Shown here: positions 3,022 through 8,057 of the stretch, piece by piece
How positions within the stretch are numbered: position 1 is the stretch's first letter
Layout of the letters: each line of letters starts with the position of its first letter
Source: Escherichia phage KEP2
DNA: 64,000 nucleotides
Sequence record: PP047752
Strand: one strand, 5' to 3'
Program-made: the position numbers and the translations under genes
Notes under the pieces: generated by a model
What the model was told of the DNA's origin: nothing
The model's input: the letters and a program-made list of their open reading frames with translations, nothing else
Database searches by the model: none

Positions 3022-4437
3022 ATGAGCGAATTATTTAAACATGCGCACCTTCATGCAGGTCGAACTGAAAATGGTGCTGTAAACCATACTTCATCAATGT
3101 CTGCTCTGGTAGACTTCTACAAAGCCGCTGGCTCAAGCCGTAGCAATGTAGAAATTTTACCAGACCTGTTCTACAAAGCTTTGCGTGAGGATGTTGATGT
3201 TGCAGTTCGTATTTTACTGCATATGCGAGATGTAAGAGAAGGTATGGGTGAGCGTAAAGCTTTCCGAACTGTTTTACTTCAAGCGATTGAAGATAAAGTT
3301 TTAGAACCTACACAGGTTCTTCGCATTATGGATAAGATTGCAGAGCTTGGTCGTTTTGATGACTTCAAAATCTTCGTAGGTACTCGTTTTGAGACAGATG
3401 CCTTCAAACATTTAGAAGCAGCATTACTAGACCCTGCAACAGCAGGTTTAGCAGCTAAGTGGTTACCACGAGTAAAACCACGCCACAAACAGTTTGTAAA
3501 ACGTTTCTGTAAGTTTGCAAACTTAAGTGAGAAGGAGTATCGCACACTGTTATCTGCACTGTCTGATACAGTTGAGCAAAAAATCTCTGCTAATGAGTTT
3601 GGTAAGATTGACTACAGCAAGATTCCTTCACTCGCTGCTGCACGTTACCAAAAGCTCTTTAACCGTAAAGATGGGGAACGTTACAAAGCTTACATTGAGT
3701 CCCTCTCAAAAGGTGAGGCTAAGATTAACGCTGGTGCTGTTTACCCATACGATGTGATTAAATCTATCAAGTATGGTAATGCAGATGTTGCTAATGAGCA
3801 GTGGAAAGCACTACCAAACTGGATGGCAGATGGTGAAAACATCTTGTGTATGACTGATGTTTCAAGCTCAATGTCTTGGGTGAATCTTGGTTCAATCACT
3901 GCCCTTGATATTGGTGTATCACTTGCCTTGTATGTAGCAGAACGCAATACAGGTTGCTTTAAGAATGAGTTAATGGTTTATTCAACAAACCCTCACTTCA
4001 TCGAACTGAGTGGTGATTTACGAAACCGTCATCGTCAGGTAATGCGTCATGTTGAATATGGCTCAACTAACTTACAAGCAGCTTTTGACCGCATTCTTGA
4101 GATAGGTAAGAGAAACAACTTGACTCAGAAAGATATGCCAAGTAAGCTTATCATCTTCTCTGATATGGAGTTTAATCAGGTTGATGGTGCAAATGGTCGT
4201 ACAAACTTTGAAGCAATTCAGAGTAAGTACAAAAAAGCTGGATACGAAATGCCACAACTAGTATTCTGGTACTTAGCAAACCGTAATGGTACTTGCGAAG
4301 TATCTGTTAAGGATAATGGTGTAGCAATGGTATCAGGGTTCTCTCCAGCCACTTTAAAAGCTCTGCTTGGTGGTGAGAAGTTTGACCCAATCAGCGTAAT
4401 GCTCAAAGCAGTAATGATTGACCGTTACATCTGGTAA
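3022..4437 (+). CDS. vWA-domain protein, candidate Ro60/Rsr-like (TROVE-vWA) RNA-binding protein
   Basis: 471 aa; MIDAS-type D-x-S-x-S (MTDVSSSMSW) and downstream LIIFSDMEF motif resemble the Ro60 vWA domain as I recall it; helical N-terminal ~270 aa; lies just upstream of tRNA/Y-RNA-like cluster. TROVE assignment is not verified. Confidence 0.45.
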   Translation: MSELFKHAHLHAGRTENGAVNHTSSMSALVDFYKAAGSSRSNVEILPDLFYKALREDVDVAVRILLHMRDVREGMGERKAFRTVLLQAIEDKVLEPTQVLRIMDKIAELGRFDDFKIFVGTRFETDAFKHLEAALLDPATAGLAAKWLPRVKPRHKQFVKRFCKFANLSEKEYRTLLSALSDTVEQKISANEFGKIDYSKIPSLAAARYQKLFNRKDGERYKAYIESLSKGEAKINAGAVYPYDVIKSIKYGNADVANEQWKALPNWMADGENILCMTDVSSSMSWVNLGSITALDIGVSLALYVAERNTGCFKNELMVYSTNPHFIELSGDLRNRHRQVMRHVEYGSTNLQAAFDRILEIGKRNNLTQKDMPSKLIIFSDMEFNQVDGANGRTNFEAIQSKYKKAGYEMPQLVFWYLANRNGTCEVSVKDNGVAMVSGFSPATLKALLGGEKFDPISVMLKAVMIDRYIW

Positions 4438-4602: not shown

Positions 4603-4679
4603 CTCTGTTTAGCTCAGCTTGGTAGAGCGTTCCGTTTGGGGCGGTAAGGCCGGAGGTTCAAGTCCTCCAACAGAGACCA
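4603..4679 (+). tRNA. tRNA-Pro (anticodon TGG)
   Basis: Acceptor complementarity, TAGCTCAG D-arm, anticodon loop TTTGGGG, T-arm GGAGG-TTCAAGT-CCTCC. Confidence 0.7.
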
Positions 4680-4686
4680 AATTAAT

Positions 4687-4764
4687 GTTCCAGTAGACAA
4701 AATGGTAAAGTCACCACTCTTTCAAAGTGGATATTTGAGGGTTCAAATCCCTTCTGGAACGCCA
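4687..4764 (+). tRNA. tRNA-Glu (anticodon TTC)
   Basis: Acceptor GTTCCAG/CTGGAAC, anticodon stem CCACT/AGTGG with loop CTTTCAA, T-loop TTCAAAT, CCA encoded. Confidence 0.7.
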
Positions 4765-4771
4765 GTTTTGA

Positions 4772-4844
4772 CAGAAGACCAATTACAGCAAACTTAATCT
4801 TATTCATCTGACACGAAATCGGACAAAGAAGAGGTTTGGTCTGG
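4772..4844 (+). repeat. hairpin module A of CAGAAGACC…GGTCTGG family
   Basis: 5' CAGAAGACCAA pairs with 3' TTGGTCTGG; CAGCAA box in loop. Confidence 0.5.
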
Positions 4845-4855
4845 TCATTAAGAAT

Positions 4856-4932
4856 TGCGGGTATAGAGAAAGGGCGTCTCACATGTCTCATTAGCATGGT
4901 ATCGGCAGGTTCGACTCCTGCACCCGCCTCCA
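4856..4932 (+). tRNA. tRNA with anticodon CAT (Met or Ile2)
   Basis: D-stem GAGA/TCTC, anticodon stem CATGT/GCATG with loop CTCATTA, T-arm GCAGG-TTCGACT-CCTGC, CCA encoded; one acceptor mismatch. Confidence 0.55.
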
Positions 4933-4938
4933 ATTTTG

Positions 4939-4998
4939 CAGAAGACCGTATTCAGCAACAAAATACTTTTTGCGGATAAAAGAAAAAACACGGTCTGG
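4939..4998 (+). repeat. hairpin module B of CAGAAGACC…GGTCTGG family
   Basis: 5' CAGAAGACCGT pairs with 3' ACGGTCTGG (compensatory change relative to A and C); CAGCAA box. Confidence 0.5.
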
Positions 4999-5009
4999 CA
5001 ATGTATTAA

Positions 5010-5086
5010 GGTTAGGAAGCACATAAGGTATGTGCGGTCGCCTGTTAAGCGAATGGCACAGGGTTCGAATCCCTGACTAACCGCCA
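5010..5086 (+). tRNA. tRNA-Asn (anticodon GTT)
   Basis: D-stem GCAC/GTGC, anticodon loop CTGTTAA, T-arm CAGGG-TTCGAAT-CCCTG, CCA encoded. Confidence 0.7.
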
Positions 5087-5173
5087 AATTATAATAAGTA
5101 TTTCAAGATGATGTTTTGAGAGGGCTATTTAGCCCCTCCCTTAAAGAGTTCTTACGAGTATTCTTTAAAGGAG

Positions 5174-5248
5174 CAGAAGACCAAATTCAGCAAGTACGTA
5201 TGATATTTTCAAGCCAATCAAATTTTGAAAAATTTAAACTTGGTCTGG
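5174..5248 (+). repeat. hairpin module C of CAGAAGACC…GGTCTGG family
   Basis: 5' CAGAAGACCAA pairs with 3' TTGGTCTGG; CAGCAA box. Confidence 0.5.
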
Positions 5249-5261
5249 CTCAACAAATTTA

Positions 5262-5393
5262 CAGAAGACCGTTTACAGCAAAACTTAAACAATCTATTTC
5301 TCCGGTAAAGAAAAGGTGAAGGTTCGATTCCTTCACTCGGCAGATGTCGAGTTGGTGTAATGGTAACACTTAAGATGATAAACAACGGTCTGG
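5262..5393 (+). ncRNA. candidate Y-RNA-like (YrlA-like) ncRNA with permuted tRNA-like core
   Basis: Terminal stem AGACCG(5266-5271)/CGGTCT(5386-5391); inside, T-arm GAAGG-TTCGATT-CCTTC (5318-5334), 7-bp acceptor-like stem ACTCGGC/GTCGAGT closed by AGAT loop (5335-5352), D-arm GTGT-AATGGTA-ACAC (5355-5369). Confidence 0.45.
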
Positions 5394-5542
5394 TAATTAT
5401 CTTTGTAGGTGAGCTATTAAGCTTACCTGTGAGTATGCGACCACAAAGGGTGAAAGGGTAAATTCTAGATTTAAACCCAACAAGGCACATCGCTACAGAC
5501 CTTAAGCAAGTCTGGGTAGCTTATCTACAAAGATAATTTAAT

Positions 5543-5618
5543 GGAAGTGTAGCAGAATGGTGATGCGGCAGACTTTTAATCTGACAGGCGATGGGTTCGA
5601 ATCCCTCCACTTCTACCA
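5543..5618 (+). tRNA. tRNA-Lys (anticodon TTT)
   Basis: Acceptor GGAAGTG/CACTTCT, anticodon loop CTTTTAA, T-loop TTCGAAT, CCA encoded. Confidence 0.6.
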
Positions 5619-5622
5619 ATAT

Positions 5623-5699
5623 GGTTCAGTCGCAGATAAGGTAATGCAGGGGTTTCATAAGCCCTTTGAATGTGGGTTAGATTCCCATCTGAACCTCCA
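5623..5699 (+). tRNA. tRNA with anticodon CAT (Met or Ile2)
   Basis: Acceptor GGTTCAG/CTGAACC, anticodon stem GGGGT/GCCCT with loop TTCATAA; T-loop atypical (TTAGATT). Confidence 0.5.
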
Positions 5700-5701
5700 A
5701 T

Positions 5702-5776
5702 TGTGGGTTAGCATAAATGGTAATGCAAACGGCTGATAACCGTTAGAAGAGGGTTCGATACCCTCACCTACAACCA
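5702..5776 (+). tRNA. tRNA-Ile (anticodon GAT)
   Basis: D-stem GCAT/ATGC, perfect anticodon stem AACGG/CCGTT with loop CTGATAA, T-arm GAGGG-TTCGATA-CCCTC, CCA encoded. Confidence 0.75.
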
Positions 5777-5791
5777 ATTTCAATAAAGTTG

Positions 5792-5820
5792 TTGACATTG
5801 AGATGTGACCACTTTATAGT
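5792..5820 (+). promoter_or_regulatory. sigma70-like promoter (TTGACA-17-TATAGT) inside the tRNA array
   Basis: TTGACA 5792-5797, 17-nt spacer, TATAGT 5815-5820. Confidence 0.55.
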
Positions 5821-6113
5821 AACTAAAATACTTCATAATATGTATAATTCAAACACCAATACATGAGCGTTAGACGTAACACAATGTGGGGAAATTTGTT
5901 GTACATATTCTGAATAGTTTTCGTTGCGTAGCGTCTATTTTGCAAATTTAAAATAAATGCAAACGACAATGTTTTTCTGGCAGTAGCTTGATAGGCTAAA
6001 CACCAGTGAGGTCTTCCAATCCCTCATCAAAGAATTTGGCGTACTCGCCCACGGTATGATTAATAAGGTGGGCATCTTTAAGGGCTTTCTAAGAGAGTCT
6101 TTAAAGATAATTA

Positions 6114-6195
6114 CGGGGCGTATCTCAGCGGTCTTCTAAACCGCCGTTAACCGAGTAAGTGGAGTATGCGGGTTCGAGTCCTGCCGCCTCGACCA
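6114..6195 (+). tRNA. atypical tRNA-like element (T-arm, acceptor and TCT anticodon-like loop; no recognisable D-arm)
   Basis: Acceptor CGGGGCG/CGCCTCG plus CCA, T-arm GCGGG-TTCGAGT-CCTGC, stem-loop GCGGT-CTTCTAA-ACCGC; 82 nt. Confidence 0.4.
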
Positions 6196-6209
6196 ATTTT
6201 GGAGAAATC

Positions 6210-6557
6210 ATGAAAACTTGTATTAGGTGCAAACTTAGCAAGGATGAAAATGATTTCTACATGAAAGATGGTAAGAGAACTCATTCATACTGTAAAAAGT
6301 GTGTTAATGAGCAAACCATAGAAAGACAAAGAGCACTTAAACTTTCAGCTATTGAGTACAAAGGTGGGGTTTGTCATGATTGTGGTAAAAGGTATCATCC
6401 AGCAGTGTATGACTTCCATCATTTGAATCCTTCAGAGAAAGATTTTAACATTGGTCATAGAAAAAGTCTGAAGTTCTCTCAAGAACTAAAAGATGAACTT
6501 GACAAATGTGTTTTGCTATGTTCAAATTGCCATAGGGTAAGACATGCAAAGTATTAG
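6210..6557 (+). CDS. HNH homing-endonuclease-like protein
   Basis: CxxC…CxxC zinc pairs and HH…N…CH motif (YDFHHLNP…CSNCHRVRH); start taken at ATG 6210 because track start 6159 overlaps the tRNA-like element. Confidence 0.7.
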   Translation: MKTCIRCKLSKDENDFYMKDGKRTHSYCKKCVNEQTIERQRALKLSAIEYKGGVCHDCGKRYHPAVYDFHHLNPSEKDFNIGHRKSLKFSQELKDELDKCVLLCSNCHRVRHAKY

Positions 6558-6694
6558 TTAGCAGATTGCTTAGACGACCTTATCGGGTCTCCGTGTAAGG
6601 AGGTGGTCTGTATCTCATGTTTTCCAGAACATGTAAATAATCTGAGAAGGGGCTTTACAGTGTTGCGAAAATACGGTAAGCTTCGAATTATAGT

Positions 6695-6776
6695 GTGGGA
6701 CGATGTTAAGACTCTAAGGCATGAGCAACGGCCTCCAAAACCGTTTCAAAGTGGTTCAACTCCTCCGTCCCATGCC
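6695..6776 (+). tRNA. tRNA-Trp-like (anticodon CCA), atypical length
   Basis: Acceptor GTGGGAC/GTCCCAT plus CCA, anticodon loop CTCCAAA; D-region too long for a canonical fold. Confidence 0.4.
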
Positions 6777-6790
6777 AAAGTCTTATTAGG

Positions 6791-6878
6791 GGTAGGTAGC
6801 GGCTAATGGTAGCCAAACTGTCTTGAAAACAGTTGCCACTGTAGAGATACGGTGAGGGTTCGACTCCTTTACTTACCG
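6791..6878 (+). tRNA. tRNA-Ser (anticodon TGA), long variable arm
   Basis: Acceptor GGTAGGT/ACTTACC, anticodon stem ACTGT/ACAGT with loop CTTGAAA, ~20-nt variable arm, T-loop TTCGACT. Confidence 0.6.
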
Positions 6879-7135
6879 CCTAATAAGATTTAAAGCCAAG
6901 CTTCATTCGGATGTTGCTTTGGTATCCCTCGTGTATTGTCGTACACACTGATAAAGCACCTAGTAGGTGTCACGGAGAAGAGATAATATCAAGCTCTCCA
7001 AAGGTTCTAGTCACCGGATTAAACAAGACTATGCAAAGACCAATTTAGGTCTTTTTAGAGGGCTTCTAAGGTTATTACAGCTTGTTGTGGAACCTTGTTG
7101 CTTAGGTTCTTAGAAGTTCTCTAAAAAGATTTAAT

Positions 7136-7212
7136 GCACCTATAGCCCAACTGGTAGAGGCAGCAGACTTAGAATCTGCTCAGTGTGAGTTCGAATCTCT
7201 CTAGGTGTACCA
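7136..7212 (+). tRNA. tRNA with anticodon TAG (Leu codon CUA) but short variable loop
   Basis: Acceptor GCACCTA/TAGGTGT plus CCA, 6-bp anticodon stem AGCAGA/TCTGCT with loop CTTAGAA, T-loop TTCGAAT. Confidence 0.5.
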
Positions 7213-7219
7213 AATTAAT

Positions 7220-7295
7220 GCAGGTGTAGCAAAATGGTTATGCGGCTGACTCTTAATCAGTAAGACGATGGGTTCAATTCCCTCCACCTGTACCA
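7220..7295 (+). tRNA. tRNA-Lys (anticodon CTT)
   Basis: Acceptor GCAGGTG/CACCTGT, anticodon loop CTCTTAA, T-loop TTCAATT, CCA encoded; paralogous to 5543-5618. Confidence 0.6.
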
Positions 7296-7301
7296 AACAT
7301 T

Positions 7302-7377
7302 GGGGATGTAGTTTACATGGTTAAAACATAAGTTTTGCAAACTTAAGTACAGGGTTCAATTCCCTGCTTCTCCACCA
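7302..7377 (+). tRNA. tRNA-Ala (anticodon TGC)
   Basis: D-stem GTTT/AAAC, perfect anticodon stem TAAGT/ACTTA with loop TTTGCAA, T-arm CAGGG-TTCAATT-CCCTG, CCA encoded. Confidence 0.7.
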
Positions 7378-7459
7378 ATTAGTGCATCCATAGTTTAAAT
7401 GGGAAAATTACAGTCTTCCAAACTGAGGTTGAGGGTTCGATTCCCTCTGGATGCTCCAA
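7372..7459 (+). repeat. 88-bp perfect direct repeat, copy 1 (contains tRNA-Gly)
   Basis: Identical to 7785-7872 by direct comparison. Confidence 0.85.
7384..7458 (+). tRNA. tRNA-Gly (anticodon TCC), copy 1
   Basis: Perfect acceptor GCATCCA/TGGATGC, anticodon loop CTTCCAA, T-arm GAGGG-TTCGATT-CCCTC, CCA encoded. Confidence 0.75.
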
Positions 7460-7465
7460 ATTAAT

Positions 7466-7541
7466 GCTCCTATCGTATAATTGGCTATTACGGTTGCCTT
7501 GTAAGCAACTTATCAGGGTTCGAATCCTTGTGGGAGCACCA
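7466..7541 (+). tRNA. tRNA-Thr (anticodon TGT)
   Basis: Acceptor GCTCCTA/TGGGAGC, perfect anticodon stem GTTGC/GCAAC with loop CTTGTAA, T-loop TTCGAAT, CCA encoded. Confidence 0.7.
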
Positions 7542-7543
7542 AT

Positions 7544-7632
7544 TCAGAGGTCAAGTGAAAGACCGCTGGTGTCAACTGAAGACCGTAACAAATTCCACGG
7601 AGTTGAGTTAGCGGCACAACTTCAGACCTCTT
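7544..7632 (+). ncRNA. structured spacer, candidate small RNA related to the AGACC hairpin family
   Basis: Outer stem CAGAGGTC/GACCTCT, inner pairings CTGAAG/CTTCAG and CCGCT/AGCGG; contains CTGAAGACCGTAACAAATT resembling the 5' box of modules A-D. Confidence 0.3.
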
Positions 7633-7636
7633 TCAT

Positions 7637-7711
7637 ACTCGCTTAGTTTATATGGTAAAACACCACCCTTACAAGATGAAGAAAAAGGTTCAAGTCCTTT
7701 AGTGAGTACCA
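7637..7711 (+). tRNA. tRNA-Val-like (anticodon TAC), weak anticodon stem
   Basis: Acceptor ACTCGCT/AGTGAGT plus CCA, D-stem GTTT/AAAC, T-arm AAAGG-TTCAAGT-CCTTT; only 3 of 5 anticodon-stem pairs. Confidence 0.45.
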
Positions 7712-7712
7712 T

Positions 7713-7790
7713 GTTCCAGTATCCCAATTGGCAGAGGATGCAAGCTCAAACCTTGTATTAGTGACGGTTCGAATCCGTCTTGGAACACCA
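7713..7790 (+). tRNA. tRNA with anticodon CAA (Leu codon UUG) but short variable loop
   Basis: Acceptor GTTCCAG/TTGGAAC plus CCA, anticodon stem GCAAG/CTTGT with loop CTCAAAC, T-arm GACGG-TTCGAAT-CCGTC. Confidence 0.5.
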
Positions 7791-7872
7791 ATTAGTGCAT
7801 CCATAGTTTAAATGGGAAAATTACAGTCTTCCAAACTGAGGTTGAGGGTTCGATTCCCTCTGGATGCTCCAA
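7785..7872 (+). repeat. 88-bp perfect direct repeat, copy 2 (contains tRNA-Gly)
   Basis: Identical to 7372-7459. Confidence 0.85.
7797..7871 (+). tRNA. tRNA-Gly (anticodon TCC), copy 2
   Basis: Sequence identical to 7384-7458. Confidence 0.75.
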
Positions 7873-7895: not shown

Positions 7896-7968
7896 AAATA
7901 ATAATAATGCCCTGCTATAAGTATTCTTCCTTTCGCTACCGAAGAGTATTTTTAGACAGGGCTTTTTT
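7896..7968 (+). terminator. compound hairpin plus T-run at end of tRNA array
   Basis: GCCCTG…CAGGGC arms followed by TTTTTT. Confidence 0.45.
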
Positions 7969-8033: not shown

Positions 8034-8057
8034 GACGGTCTCTGTACCGTCTTTTTT
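8034..8057 (+). terminator. rho-independent terminator-like hairpin
   Basis: GACGGT-CTCTGT-ACCGTC followed by TTTTTT. Confidence 0.55.

What the first reader, a model, noticed from the sequence alone, without database searches (positions are those of the whole stretch)
7136..7790. tRNAs with leucine anticodons (TAG, CAA) but class-I architecture, plus weakly folded tRNA-like genes
Two genes fold with clean anticodon stem-loops reading TAG and CAA but have 5-6-nt variable loops instead of the long arm of bacterial tRNA-Leu. 7637-7711 has a good acceptor, D-arm and T-arm but only 3 of 5 anticodon-stem pairs, and 6695-6776 has a Trp-type loop with an over-long D-region. These could be non-canonical decoders, identity-switched tRNAs, or decaying pseudogenes.
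Basis: seen in the sequence. Interest (0 to 1): 0.4.

Follow-up and report, generated by a model that had tools for sequence, protein, structure and literature searches.

The report
Phage tRNAs with non-standard architectures
A Felix O1-type phage carries real leucine tRNAs that lack the long extra arm bacterial leucine tRNAs normally have, next to two unannotated, oddly built tRNA-like genes (Trp and Arg anticodons) that evolution has clearly preserved, so phages seem to use tRNA shapes that textbooks say the bacterial cytoplasm does not contain.

Summary
ARAGORN and Rfam call tRNA-Leu(UAG) at 7136-7212 and tRNA-Leu(CAA) at 7713-7790, with 5- and 6-nt variable loops. They are not identity-switched tRNAs or pseudogenes. 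Both carry the complete E. coli LeuRS identity core, which occurs only in Leu tRNAs in a 74-tRNA panel. Published tRNAscan-SE isotype scores for the identical or near-identical Sf14 genes rank Leu first. Leu(CAA) is 100% conserved across three phage genera.

Short-arm tRNA-Leu is a known but rare kind (Streptomyces, animal mitochondria). It proved common in phages: about 27% of Leu tRNAs in viral arrays, while Ser and Tyr keep their arms.

tRNA-Val's 30:40 mismatch is a family trait. Its 27:43 mismatch is private to this phage.

The "Trp-type" element (6695-6777) is a strongly covarying, never-annotated tRNA-Trp candidate with an invariant 10-nt acceptor-to-D connector.

Outside the finding, 6114-6195 belongs to a phage-wide class of tRNA-like genes whose D-arm is rearranged around the anticodon arm. 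It has anticodon UCU and fills the slot where relatives have a normal tRNA-Arg.

Expression and charging are untested.

The parts
7136..7212 (+). tRNA-Leu(UAG), short variable loop UCAGU (type I), encoded CCA
   Evidence: ARAGORN. Rfam 57.3 bits. Carries A73, U8:A14, A15, U48 and the 17-nt D arm GCCC-AA-CU-GG-U-AGA-GGC, as in E. coli tRNA-Leu. Identical in SP22; 95-99% identical in Sf14, Sf17, Moogle and EcSzw2.
7713..7790 (+). tRNA-Leu(CAA), short variable loop AUUAGU (type I), encoded CCA
   Evidence: ARAGORN. Rfam 44.0 bits. Same Leu identity signature. 78/78 identical in Alf5, Moogle, Sf14, Sf17 and EcSzw2, while a nearby spacer is 79-85% identical.
7637..7711 (+). tRNA-Val(UAC) with two anticodon-stem mismatches
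   Evidence: ARAGORN and Rfam, 55.8 bits. The 30:40 mismatch (C.A or U.U) occurs in all nine Ounavirinae-type copies. Pair 27:43 is U-A in Alf5/SP22 and C-G in Moogle-type phages; the window has the one-sided C.A. The T stem also covaries.
6695..6777 (+). Unannotated noncanonical tRNA-Trp candidate: acceptor(7) - invariant 10-nt connector GAUGUUAAGA - 3-bp D stem - anticodon helix with loop CUCCAAA (CCA) - T arm - G73 - CCA
   Evidence: Alignment A2 of 8 phages: 96.7% of cells paired; 6 pairs change on both sides against 0 in slid controls; 0/500 shuffles reach the covariation score. Present in 235 phage records and never annotated as a tRNA. No ARAGORN tRNA-Trp in any of the 9 Ounavirinae-type arrays.
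6114..6195 (+). Rearranged-D-arm tRNA-Arg(UCU) candidate: acceptor-U8-A9-U-[CUC]-A-[anticodon arm, loop CUUCUAA]-CGUUAACC-[GAG]-UAAGUGGAGUAU-T arm-A73-CCA
   Evidence: Rfam tRNA 31.7 bits, with the D arm absent and a 20-nt insert. A3: 100% paired, 10 compensatory pairs. A4 (13 sequences): 18 of 20 pairs compensatory, including all 3 pairs of the helix that encloses the anticodon arm. Mutually exclusive with canonical Arg(TCT) in the same slot.
4603..7871 (+). The tRNA array that holds these genes (16 ARAGORN-called tRNAs plus the two uncalled elements)
   Evidence: Same gene order as Felix O1, Alf5, SP22, Moogle and Sf14.
6210..6557 (+). HNH homing-endonuclease-like ORF directly downstream of the rearranged tRNA
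   Evidence: Weak Pfam HNH match, E = 0.0085, below the curated cut-off. Annotated as HNH endonuclease in Alf5. An HNH gene also follows the homologous element in Klebsiella phage Roth49.

Best explanation
The window is the tRNA array of a Felix O1-like myovirus (Felixounavirus) of E. coli/Salmonella. The genes at 7136-7212 and 7713-7790 are genuine, selectively maintained leucine tRNAs of the short-variable-loop ('type I') kind. They have lost the long extra arm but keep everything E. coli leucyl-tRNA synthetase is known to read: discriminator A73, the U8:A14 pair, the A15:U48 Levitt pair, a 3-bp D stem with an unpaired 13:22, G18G19 placed four bases after position 13, A20a, and the T-loop partners U54, U55, C56 and A58.

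Inferred mechanism: host RNase P and 3' processing release them from the array transcript with their encoded CCA. Host LeuRS, which reads neither the anticodon nor the long arm, charges them with leucine. They then decode CUA (UAG anticodon, probably also CUG) and UUG (CAA anticodon), which helps an AT-rich phage whose Leu codon usage differs strongly from the host's.

The 'weakly folded' neighbours are also maintained genes. tRNA-Val has a family-wide 30:40 mismatch. 6695-6777 is most likely the array's missing tRNA-Trp, with an extra invariant 8 nt between the acceptor and D stems. 6114-6195 is most likely an AGA-reading tRNA-Arg whose D-stem 5' strand and D loop lie after the anticodon arm instead of before it.

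Shown: sequences, structures, conservation, covariation, distribution and codon usage. Inferred: transcription, processing, charging and use on the ribosome.
For: Genome identity and synteny.

Leu identity signature: 10 of 74 unique tRNAs have it. These are all 6 E. coli Leu and 4 phage short Leu; 0 of 63 non-Leu have it (Fisher p = 1.5e-11).

In viral arrays, using members not selected by the search pattern: 32/68 short-arm Leu and 34/63 long-arm Leu carry the signature, against 4/1285 non-Leu class I tRNAs (p = 3e-41; short versus long not significant). A73 in 67/68 and U48 in 65/68.

The E. coli identity set, and the dispensability of the long arm and anticodon, are stated in PMC9976931.

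tRNAscan-SE 2.0 isotype scores for Sf14 put Leu top for TAG (67.4), CAA (49.1) and TAA (60.2) (PMC12482277). Sf14 Leu(CAA) is identical to the window's, and Leu(TAG) differs by 1 nt.

Purifying selection: Leu(CAA) is 100% identical and Leu(TAG) 95-99% identical across genera, against 79-85% for spacer 6881-7135.

Codon usage: CUA is 12.0% and UUA 27.1% of Leu codons, against 3.3% and 8.9% in an E. coli sample. CUG is 15% against 55%.

S. coelicolor type I tRNA-Leu(CAA) is leucylated in vitro, and needs a variable loop of at least 5 nt (PMC6614811).

Val. Trp-like. Arg-like. AGA is 41.8% of Arg codons against 2.6% in the host sample.
Against: There are no expression, processing or aminoacylation data for any of these RNAs.

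Fan et al. (PMC6614811) found that E. coli LeuRS could not charge the S. coelicolor type I tRNA-Leu(CAA), and they describe EcLeuRS as charging only type II. That tRNA has C48, so it lacks the A15:U48 element the phage tRNAs have. Even so, the negative result shows that a short arm can matter.

Leu(UAG) has a U50.U64 mismatch in its T stem, and A37 where the host isoacceptor has G37. UUG is not used more by the phage than by the host, so codon supply does not explain Leu(CAA).

This phage has lost about 10 tRNAs that relatives keep, including the third short Leu(UAA), so individual tRNAs are dispensable.

Minimum-free-energy folds are no better than shuffles; this is usual for tRNAs but gives no support. 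For the Trp and Arg candidates, no known tRNA has these layouts and standard detectors reject them.
Confidence: 0.72

Rival explanations
1. Identity-switched or recoding tRNAs: a class-I tRNA of another isotype acquired a Leu anticodon and inserts a different amino acid at CUA or UUG.
For: Class-I body with Leu anticodons. Half of Sf14's tRNAs show anticodon/isotype-model inconsistency in tRNAscan-SE (PMC12482277), so mismatches do occur in this group. The acceptor 5' strand of Leu(CAA) is identical to that of the phage tRNA-Glu.
Against: The Leu-specific core signature is present and is absent from all 63 non-Leu tRNAs in the panel and from 1281/1285 in viral arrays. The isotype models rank Leu first for exactly these genes, which the paper marks 'Consistent'. 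CUA and UUG together make up 24% of the Leu codons in the phage's own genes, so misreading them would damage its whole proteome.
Confidence: 0.04
2. Decaying pseudogenes: relics of an eroding tRNA array, no longer functional.
For: The window's array has lost Tyr and Asp, plus a ~2-kb block with 8 tRNAs, compared with SP22. It also carries private weakening changes: Val U27>C, a Met(CAT) T-loop C>A, and Trp-like G51>U. The Felix O1 paper labelled two other array members as pseudo-tRNAs.
Against: Leu(CAA) is 100% identical and Leu(TAG) at least 95% identical across three genera, with all changes in loops or G.U-compatible, while a neighbouring spacer is 79-85% identical. There are compensatory substitutions in Val, the Trp-like element and the Arg-like element. 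The short-arm form is shared by 158 distinct viral sequences, all with A73.
Confidence: 0.04
3. The primary role is counter-defence rather than codon supply. On this reading, unusual shapes (no long arm, a long connector, a rearranged D arm) are kept because they escape host or rival-phage tRNA nucleases, or act as decoys, while still serving in translation or even without doing so.
For: Phage tRNAs are known to rescue infection from tRNA-cleaving defences such as PARIS, retron Eco7 and PrrC (titles and abstracts; PMC10264068). The anticodon loops of the phage Leu tRNAs differ from the host's at positions 32, 37 and 38. UUG usage gives no codon-supply reason for Leu(CAA). Arm loss is specific to Leu and recurs in many phage lineages. 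An RNA-binding-protein gene sits directly upstream of the array.
Against: No nuclease that recognises the long arm of bacterial tRNA-Leu is known, and the bacterial Schlafen paper reports no such specificity. The anticodons present match codons the phage over-uses: CUA, UUA and AGA. A pure decoy would not need the full synthetase identity set.
Confidence: 0.15

Closest known systems
Type I tRNA-Leu(CAA) of Streptomyces coelicolor (Fan et al. 2019, PMC6614811)
   Same: A bacterial-type tRNA with a Leu anticodon and a 5-nt variable loop, coexisting with long-arm tRNA-Leu in one cytoplasm and leucylated by one LeuRS. U8:A14 is important, and at least 5 variable-loop nucleotides are needed.
   Different: The Streptomyces tRNA has C48 (loop ACAGC) and does not depend on A73 or on the D/T elbow. 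E. coli LeuRS does not charge it. The phage tRNAs have A15:U48, A73 and the full E. coli-type D loop, and must work with an enterobacterial LeuRS that lacks the Streptomyces-type leucine-specific domain.
Animal mitochondrial tRNA-Leu(UUR)
   Same: A short variable loop; identity set by A73 and A14 (PMC9976931).
   Different: It is an organellar tRNA with its own dedicated LeuRS and a loose structure, and no homology is implied.
Minimalist E. coli tRNA-Leu lacking the variable and anticodon arms (Larkin et al. 2002, as summarised in PMC9976931)
   Same: This shows that E. coli LeuRS can charge arm-less substrates provided A73 and the D/T tertiary contacts are intact, which is exactly what the phage tRNAs retain.
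   Different: These are laboratory constructs. The phage genes are natural and keep a normal anticodon arm.
D-armless mitochondrial tRNA-Ser(AGY/UCU) and the synthetic 'mini HisT' used by E. coli (PMC11551756)
   Same: For 6114-6195: there is no D hairpin between the acceptor and anticodon stems, only a 4-5-nt connector. E. coli's translation machinery has been shown to accept a D-armless tRNA.
   Different: The phage element is not armless. A 3-bp helix encloses the anticodon arm, and a conserved UAAYUGGA segment with the GG dinucleotide follows it. A D-loop/T-loop elbow may therefore still form. It looks like a rearrangement rather than a loss.
8/4 tRNA-Ser and tRNA-His of alphaproteobacterial phages and allo-tRNAs (Mukai et al. 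2017, PMC5389517)
   Same: A precedent for structurally non-standard tRNAs encoded in phage tRNA clusters.
   Different: Those differ in the lengths of the acceptor and T stems. None has a short-arm Leu, a 10-nt acceptor-D connector or a rearranged D arm.

Membership tests
tRNA (Rfam RF00005 / cloverleaf) - the two Leu genes and Val | Score above the curated threshold, and a four-arm cloverleaf with a 7-nt anticodon loop, U33 and a purine at 37 | tested here: met
   57.3, 44.0 and 55.8 bits against a threshold of 29. ARAGORN cloverleaves.
Substrate of E. coli-type LeuRS (leucine identity set) | Discriminator A73 | tested here: met
   A73 in both genes. Also in 181/181 and 67/68 viral short-arm Leu tRNAs.
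Substrate of E. coli-type LeuRS (leucine identity set) | U8:A14 and the A15:U48 trans-Levitt pair | tested here: met
   U8, A14 and A15 are present, and U is the last variable-loop base in both genes. Most tRNAs of other isotypes in the panel have G15/C48.
Substrate of E. coli-type LeuRS (leucine identity set) | D-loop geometry: 3-bp D stem, 13:22 unpaired, G18G19 four bases after position 13, and A20a | tested here: met
   The D arms GCCC-AACUGGUAGA-GGC and UCCC-AAUUGGCAGA-GGA match the E. coli pattern NNNN-AAYYGGYAGA-NNN. No non-Leu tRNA in the 74-tRNA panel matches it.
Substrate of E. coli-type LeuRS (leucine identity set) | T-loop partners U54:A58, U55 and C56 | tested here: met
   The T loop is UUCGAAU in both genes.
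Substrate of E. coli-type LeuRS (leucine identity set) | Actual leucylation by E. coli or Salmonella LeuRS | not testable with these tools
   This needs an in vitro charging assay or charge-seq. The only related experiment, EcLeuRS on the Streptomyces type I tRNA with C48, was negative.
Canonical bacterial (type II) tRNA-Leu | Long variable arm (over 10 nt, with a stem) | tested here: not met
   The variable loops are 5 and 6 nt, against 13-15 nt in the five E. coli isoacceptors. The genes are therefore not filed as type II tRNA-Leu.
Type I tRNA-Leu (Streptomyces / mitochondrial kind) | A Leu anticodon on a tRNA whose variable loop is at least 5 nt but has no stem | tested here: met
   Fan et al. 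give 5 nt as the minimum for charging.
tRNAscan-SE bacterial Leu isotype model | Leu is the top-scoring isotype model | tested here: inconclusive
   tRNAscan-SE was not run on the window because it is not available here. Published scores for Sf14 rank Leu first. Sf14's CAA gene is identical to the window's, and its TAG gene differs by 1 nt.
tRNA-Trp (for 6695-6777) | CCA anticodon, G73, and A1-U72 as in E. coli tRNA-Trp | tested here: met
   CCA and G73 are invariant in 8 phages. Position 1:72 is A1-U72 in six Felix/Moogle-type relatives, G1.U72 in the window and G1-C72 in the Yersinia and Pectobacterium phages. The Trp identity elements are from PMC9976931 and my own knowledge.
tRNA-Trp (for 6695-6777) | Standard cloverleaf with a 2-nt connector between the acceptor and D stems, and detection by tRNA models | tested here: not met
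   The connector is 10 nt. Pairs 31:39 and 49:65 are always mismatched. ARAGORN makes no call, and RF00005 gives no match up to E = 10. It is therefore described as a tRNA-Trp-like candidate and not filed as a tRNA-Trp.
D-armless tRNAs (for 6114-6195) | No D stem-loop, and no D-loop/T-loop contact | tested here: inconclusive
   There is no D hairpin between the acceptor and anticodon arms. However, a covarying 3-bp helix plus a conserved GG-containing segment follow the anticodon arm. Whether an elbow forms cannot be tested here.

The most novel reading that the evidence does not exclude
Phage tRNA arrays contain natural tRNAs with non-cloverleaf or otherwise non-standard architectures that are charged and used in the bacterial cytoplasm. 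Three examples sit in this one array. The first is arm-less tRNA-Leu, about a quarter of phage-array Leu tRNAs. The second is a tRNA-Trp with an invariant 10-nt acceptor-D connector, which would be the unrecognised 20th specificity of Felix O1-group phages. The third is a class of tRNAs (Arg UCU/UCG/ACG, Ile GAU/UAU) in which the D-stem 5' strand and D loop are transposed to the 3' side of the anticodon arm. If these are real decoders, the statements that all tRNAs used in bacteria are cloverleaves and that E. coli LeuRS serves only long-arm tRNA-Leu would both need revising. Standard tRNA finders would also be systematically undercounting phage tRNAs.
Probability: 0.4. Interest if true: 0.85.

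Novelty: new variant of a known kind. Interest (0 to 1): 0.6.

Why it matters
Reviews state that tRNA-Leu carries a long arm everywhere except animal mitochondria. The one biochemical study of a bacterial short-arm tRNA-Leu concluded that E. coli LeuRS serves only the long-arm type.

Coliphage short-arm Leu tRNAs that keep the full E. coli identity core make this directly testable with one charging assay. They would also give a compact natural scaffold for leucine-based or suppressor tRNA engineering.

The two unannotated elements matter more if they are real. They would show that tRNA finders miss functional phage tRNAs. The Felix O1 group would then cover all 20 amino acids and the heavily used AGA codon. 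The bacterial translation apparatus would be shown to accept natural tRNAs with a rearranged core. This bears on how phages escape tRNA-targeting defences and on the design of orthogonal tRNAs.

Tried and rejected
1. Ranking the phage tRNAs by overall similarity to 33 E. coli tRNAs, with anticodon and variable region excluded. This was uninformative. In the control, most uncontroversial phage tRNAs did not rank their own isotype first, so the test was dropped in favour of identity-element signatures.

2. Minimum-free-energy folding against shuffles. The z-scores ran from +0.06 to -1.78, giving no discrimination, as is usual for tRNAs.

3. Promoter and terminator consensus scan of the array. 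Counts were no higher than in shuffles. It found only a terminator-like hairpin at 8034-8051; by eye there is also a long hairpin plus T-run at 7908-7966.

4. Scanning IMG/VR with the invariant 14-mer of the Trp-like connector. Nearly all 120 hits were chance. Only five Felix-like contigs scored with model R1. R1 found no long-connector homologue in 200 other viral tRNA-array loci.

5. The idea that bacterial Schlafen nucleases target long-arm tRNAs, as human SLFN11 does. The paper reports no such specificity, so this remains speculation.

6. The idea that the odd tRNA-like elements are Y-RNA partners of a Ro60-like protein encoded upstream. The upstream protein is DUF2828/DUF7788/vWA with no sequence match in the PDB. 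Both elements have normal acceptor ends with CCA and real anticodon arms, and no Rfam Y-RNA family matched. I did not pursue this further.

7. Pairing of CUC with the second GAG (in UGGAGU) of the Arg-like element. I rejected it because covariation in A4 supports the triplet immediately before UAAYUGG.
Full report
**What the window is.** The 3-kb region around the finding matches 321 phage records. Nearly all are Felix O1-like myoviruses of E. coli, Salmonella, Shigella and Citrobacter (subfamily Ounavirinae), at 95-97% identity over the full length. The finding lies in the phage's tRNA array (4603-7871), just upstream of the terminase gene. ARAGORN finds 16 tRNAs there and Rfam finds 16 hits above threshold.

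**Checking the observation.** Rfam's tRNA model scores them 57.3, 44.0 and 55.8 bits.
- Cloverleaf parsing gives variable loops UCAGU and AUUAGU, against 13-15 nt for the five E. coli Leu isoacceptors fetched from K-12.
- The Val anticodon stem has two mismatches.
- 6695-6777 has the described Trp-type loop and an over-long region before the D stem. ARAGORN and RF00005 do not call it.

**Are the Leu genes really Leu?**
- Relatives annotate three short Leu tRNAs (TAG, CAA, TAA; 75-79 nt), so the short arm is a family trait. The 2010 Felix O1 genome paper already lists the first two, without comment on their shape.
- A review of tRNA identity gives the E. coli leucine identity set as A73, the A15:U48 Levitt pair, G18G19 and A20a in the D loop, and the D/T-loop tertiary pairs. 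It states that the anticodon and long arm are dispensable (PMC9976931). Fan et al. add U8:A14.
- I assembled 74 unique tRNAs: 33 from E. coli K-12 covering all 20 isotypes, plus the phage tRNAs of the window, Alf5 and SP22.
- I scored each tRNA for A73 + U8:A14 + A15 + U48 + the 17-nt D arm NNNN-AAYYGGYAGA-NNN. Ten carry the full signature: all six distinct E. coli Leu sequences and four phage short-arm Leu. None of the 63 non-Leu tRNAs does (p = 1.5e-11).
tRNAscan-SE 2.0 isotype models rank Leu first for all three Leu tRNAs of phage Sf14 (PMC12482277). Sf14's CAA gene is identical to the window's and its TAG gene differs at one D-loop base. That paper never uses the word "variable".
- Overall similarity ranking was uninformative and was discarded.

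**Are they maintained?** Leu(CAA) is 78/78 identical in Felixounavirus, Mooglevirus and Suspvirus genomes. Leu(TAG) is 95-99% identical, with changes only in loops or to a G.U pair. The spacer 6881-7135 is 79-85% identical in the same genomes.

**Codon usage.** The phage's Leu codon usage differs sharply from the host's:

| Codon | Window (% of Leu) | E. coli sample (% of Leu) |
|---|---|---|
| CUA | 12.0 | 3.3 |
| UUA | 27.1 | 8.9 |
| UUG | 12.3 | 12.8 |
| CUG | 15.2 | 54.9 |

Codon supply therefore explains the UAG (and UAA) anticodons, but not CAA.

**How common is the short-arm form?**
- BLAST with the 77-nt Leu(TAG) gene finds full-length, arm-less, annotated tRNA-Leu genes in Mycobacterium, Streptomyces, Gordonia, Pseudomonas, Klebsiella/Cronobacter and Enterococcus phages, a cyanophage and a crAss-like phage.
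- A pattern scan of IMG/VR hit its 120-locus limit. ARAGORN found 181 short-arm Leu tRNAs there (158 unique). All have A73 and 180 have U48, and neither position was in the pattern. Ser (111/112) and Tyr (48/48) kept long arms.
- In a control set of viral loci chosen with a non-Leu tRNA pattern, arrays of at least 5 tRNAs held 12 short and 32 long Leu, against 0/32 short Ser and 0/10 short Tyr (p = 2e-4).
- Among short-arm Leu not selected by my pattern, 32/68 carry the full core signature. The figures are 34/63 for long-arm phage Leu and 4/1285 for non-Leu class I tRNAs.
- The same pattern also hit its limit in bacterial genomes. Those hits were mostly single chromosomal genes of Actinomycetota.

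**What is known.** Fan et al. 2019 showed that S. coelicolor has a type I tRNA-Leu(CAA) charged by its LeuRS. E. coli LeuRS could not charge it, and the authors state that EcLeuRS charges only type II. That tRNA has C48, so it lacks the A15:U48 element. The coliphage tRNAs have it, so the negative result need not carry over. It remains the main caveat. I found no paper that links type I tRNA-Leu to phages. A review of non-canonical tRNAs does not mention phages at all.

**tRNA-Val.** All nine Ounavirinae-type copies have a mismatch at 30:40 (C.A or U.U). Pair 27:43 is U-A in Alf5/SP22 and C-G in Moogle-type phages; the window has the one-sided intermediate C.A. The T stem also covaries between the groups. 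This is a working tRNA with a family-specific weak stem and one private change.

**The Trp-type element (6695-6777).**
- It occurs in 235 phage records and is never annotated as a tRNA.
- None of the nine Ounavirinae-type arrays examined has a callable tRNA-Trp. Sf14 is described as covering 19 amino acids. In other large viral arrays Trp is usually present (18/27 and 5/5).
- An 8-phage alignment reaching 75% identity shows 96.7% of cells paired and six pairs with changes on both sides, against none in slid controls. No shuffle out of 500 reaches the covariation score.
- The CCA anticodon, G73, the CCA end and the 10-nt connector GAUGUUAAGA are invariant. Relatives have A1-U72, as in E. coli tRNA-Trp.
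- The element is confined to this phage group in my samples.
- It is best read as a constrained, non-standard tRNA-Trp. The role of the extra 8 nt is unexplained.

**Outside the finding: 6114-6195.**
- Rfam aligns this stretch to the tRNA model with an acceptor stem, a UCU anticodon arm, a T arm and A73-CCA. There is almost no D arm, and there is a 20-nt insert.
- Full-length homologues at 83-90% identity exist in 272 phage records from unrelated groups: Justusliebigvirus, jumbo Asteriusvirus, Straboviridae, and Klebsiella, Erwinia and Serratia phages.
- Across five families every helix covaries (100% paired, 10 compensatory pairs). The loop CUUCUAA, UAUCUCA and CGUUAAYCGAGUAANUGGAGUAU stay fixed.
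- A covariance model found eight further members in unrelated viral arrays, none called by ARAGORN, with anticodons UCU, UCG, ACG, GAU and UAU.
- In the 13-sequence alignment, 18 of 20 pairs are compensatory. These include all three pairs of a helix (CUC:GAG, CCC:GGG, CGG:CCG) that encloses the anticodon arm. That alignment is model-fitted, which favours pairing, but the pair types speak for themselves.
- The layout amounts to moving the D-stem 5' strand and D loop (with GG, then A) to the 3' side of the anticodon arm.
- In the Ounavirinae the element and a canonical tRNA-Arg(TCT) are mutually exclusive in the same slot (3 genomes against 6).
- AGA is 41.8% of the phage's Arg codons, against 2.6% in the host sample. 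The Felix O1 paper remarked that a tRNA for AGA might have been expected.
- Edelmann et al. 2024 state that all known bacterial tRNAs are cloverleaves and that natural armless tRNAs exist only in mitochondria. They also show that E. coli's machinery can use a synthetic D-armless tRNA.

**Verdict.** The finding is real. The two Leu genes are ordinary in function and unusual in form: new members of the rare type I tRNA-Leu kind, which is frequent in phages. The array also holds two unannotated, strongly constrained tRNA-like genes with architectures I could not find described. Transcription, processing, charging and ribosomal use are all inferred, and simple experiments would settle them.

Noticed in passing
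window 6114-6195 (homologues: L502 1501-1582, L503 1501-1581, L504 1501-1584, L505 1501-1568; L059 4792-4886, L343 5482-5573, L271 6403-6494, L030 2684-2778, L075 10334-10429, L088 3839-3932, L289 4008-4101, L255 3823-3916): An unannotated tRNA-like gene with a UCU anticodon. A covarying 3-bp helix encloses the anticodon arm, and a conserved UAAYUGGA segment follows it (a rearranged D arm). It is a member of a class found in several unrelated phage families, with Arg and Ile anticodons. In Ounavirinae it is mutually exclusive with the canonical tRNA-Arg(TCT).
   Followed up: yes
window 3022-4437 (+): A 471-aa protein with DUF2828 + DUF7788/vWA domains (PHROG 850, 'RNA-binding protein'). It is encoded directly upstream of the tRNA array and conserved in that position in Alf5, Moogle, Sf14 and Yersinia phage P778. 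It has no sequence match in the PDB. Whether it is Ro60/TROVE-like and binds any of the odd tRNA-like RNAs was not tested.
   Followed up: partly
window 7797-7871 versus 7384-7458; window 5087 and 7872 junctions: tRNA-Gly(TCC) is present twice as identical copies, including the 7 nt upstream. Compared with SP22, the window lacks Tyr and Asp, plus a ~2-kb block (Arg-ACG, an ORF, Gln, Leu-TAA, Gln, His, Phe, an ORF, Ser-GCT, Cys). This looks like deletion by recombination between tRNA genes.
   Followed up: partly
L001 3637-3714 (Alf5), also Arno18 L379 4050-4127: Alf5 carries a different, non-orthologous short-arm tRNA-Leu(TAG) in the same array slot (GGGAGAU..., with an extra base after the acceptor stem and D loop AAUUGGUAAA). 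Ile, Ala and Thr also exist as alternative alleles among close relatives, so array slots are swapped in mosaic fashion.
   Followed up: partly
window 5623-5699: One tRNA-Met(CAT)-type gene has the T loop UUAGAUU where relatives have UUCGAUU. The C at the position that pairs with G19 is changed to A. This change is private to the window and should weaken the elbow.
   Followed up: no
window 4687-4764 and 7713-7790: tRNA-Glu(TTC) and tRNA-Leu(CAA) share the identical acceptor 5' strand GUUCCAG, and nearly the same 3' strand. This hints at duplication or recombination between array members of different isotype.
   Followed up: no
window 6210-6557; L502 1591-2100: An HNH endonuclease gene follows the rearranged tRNA both here and in the unrelated Klebsiella phage Roth49. 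This suggests the element may travel with a homing endonuclease.
   Followed up: no
window 7168-7174 and 7745-7751 (anticodon loops): Leu(UAG) has the loop CUUAGAA, with A37 where the host isoacceptor has G37 (the m1G37 site). Leu(CAA) has C38, which breaks the A36-A37-A38 motif used for i6A37. The phage tRNAs may therefore bypass host anticodon-loop modifications.
   Followed up: no
Genome-contig loci L135-L254: Short-arm tRNA-Leu with the same core signature is widespread as single chromosomal genes in Actinomycetota (Nocardia, Mycobacterium, Gordonia, Rhodococcus, Corynebacterium, Arthrobacter, Bifidobacterium). Most have anticodons UAA or CAA. This is far beyond the one Streptomyces species studied biochemically.
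   Followed up: partly
L375 2886-3634 (Moogle): ARAGORN reports a 749-nt 'permuted tmRNA' that spans three ordinary tRNA genes. It is almost certainly a false positive assembled from tRNA-like pieces. Weak Rfam tmRNA hits occur at window 5719-6195.
   Followed up: no
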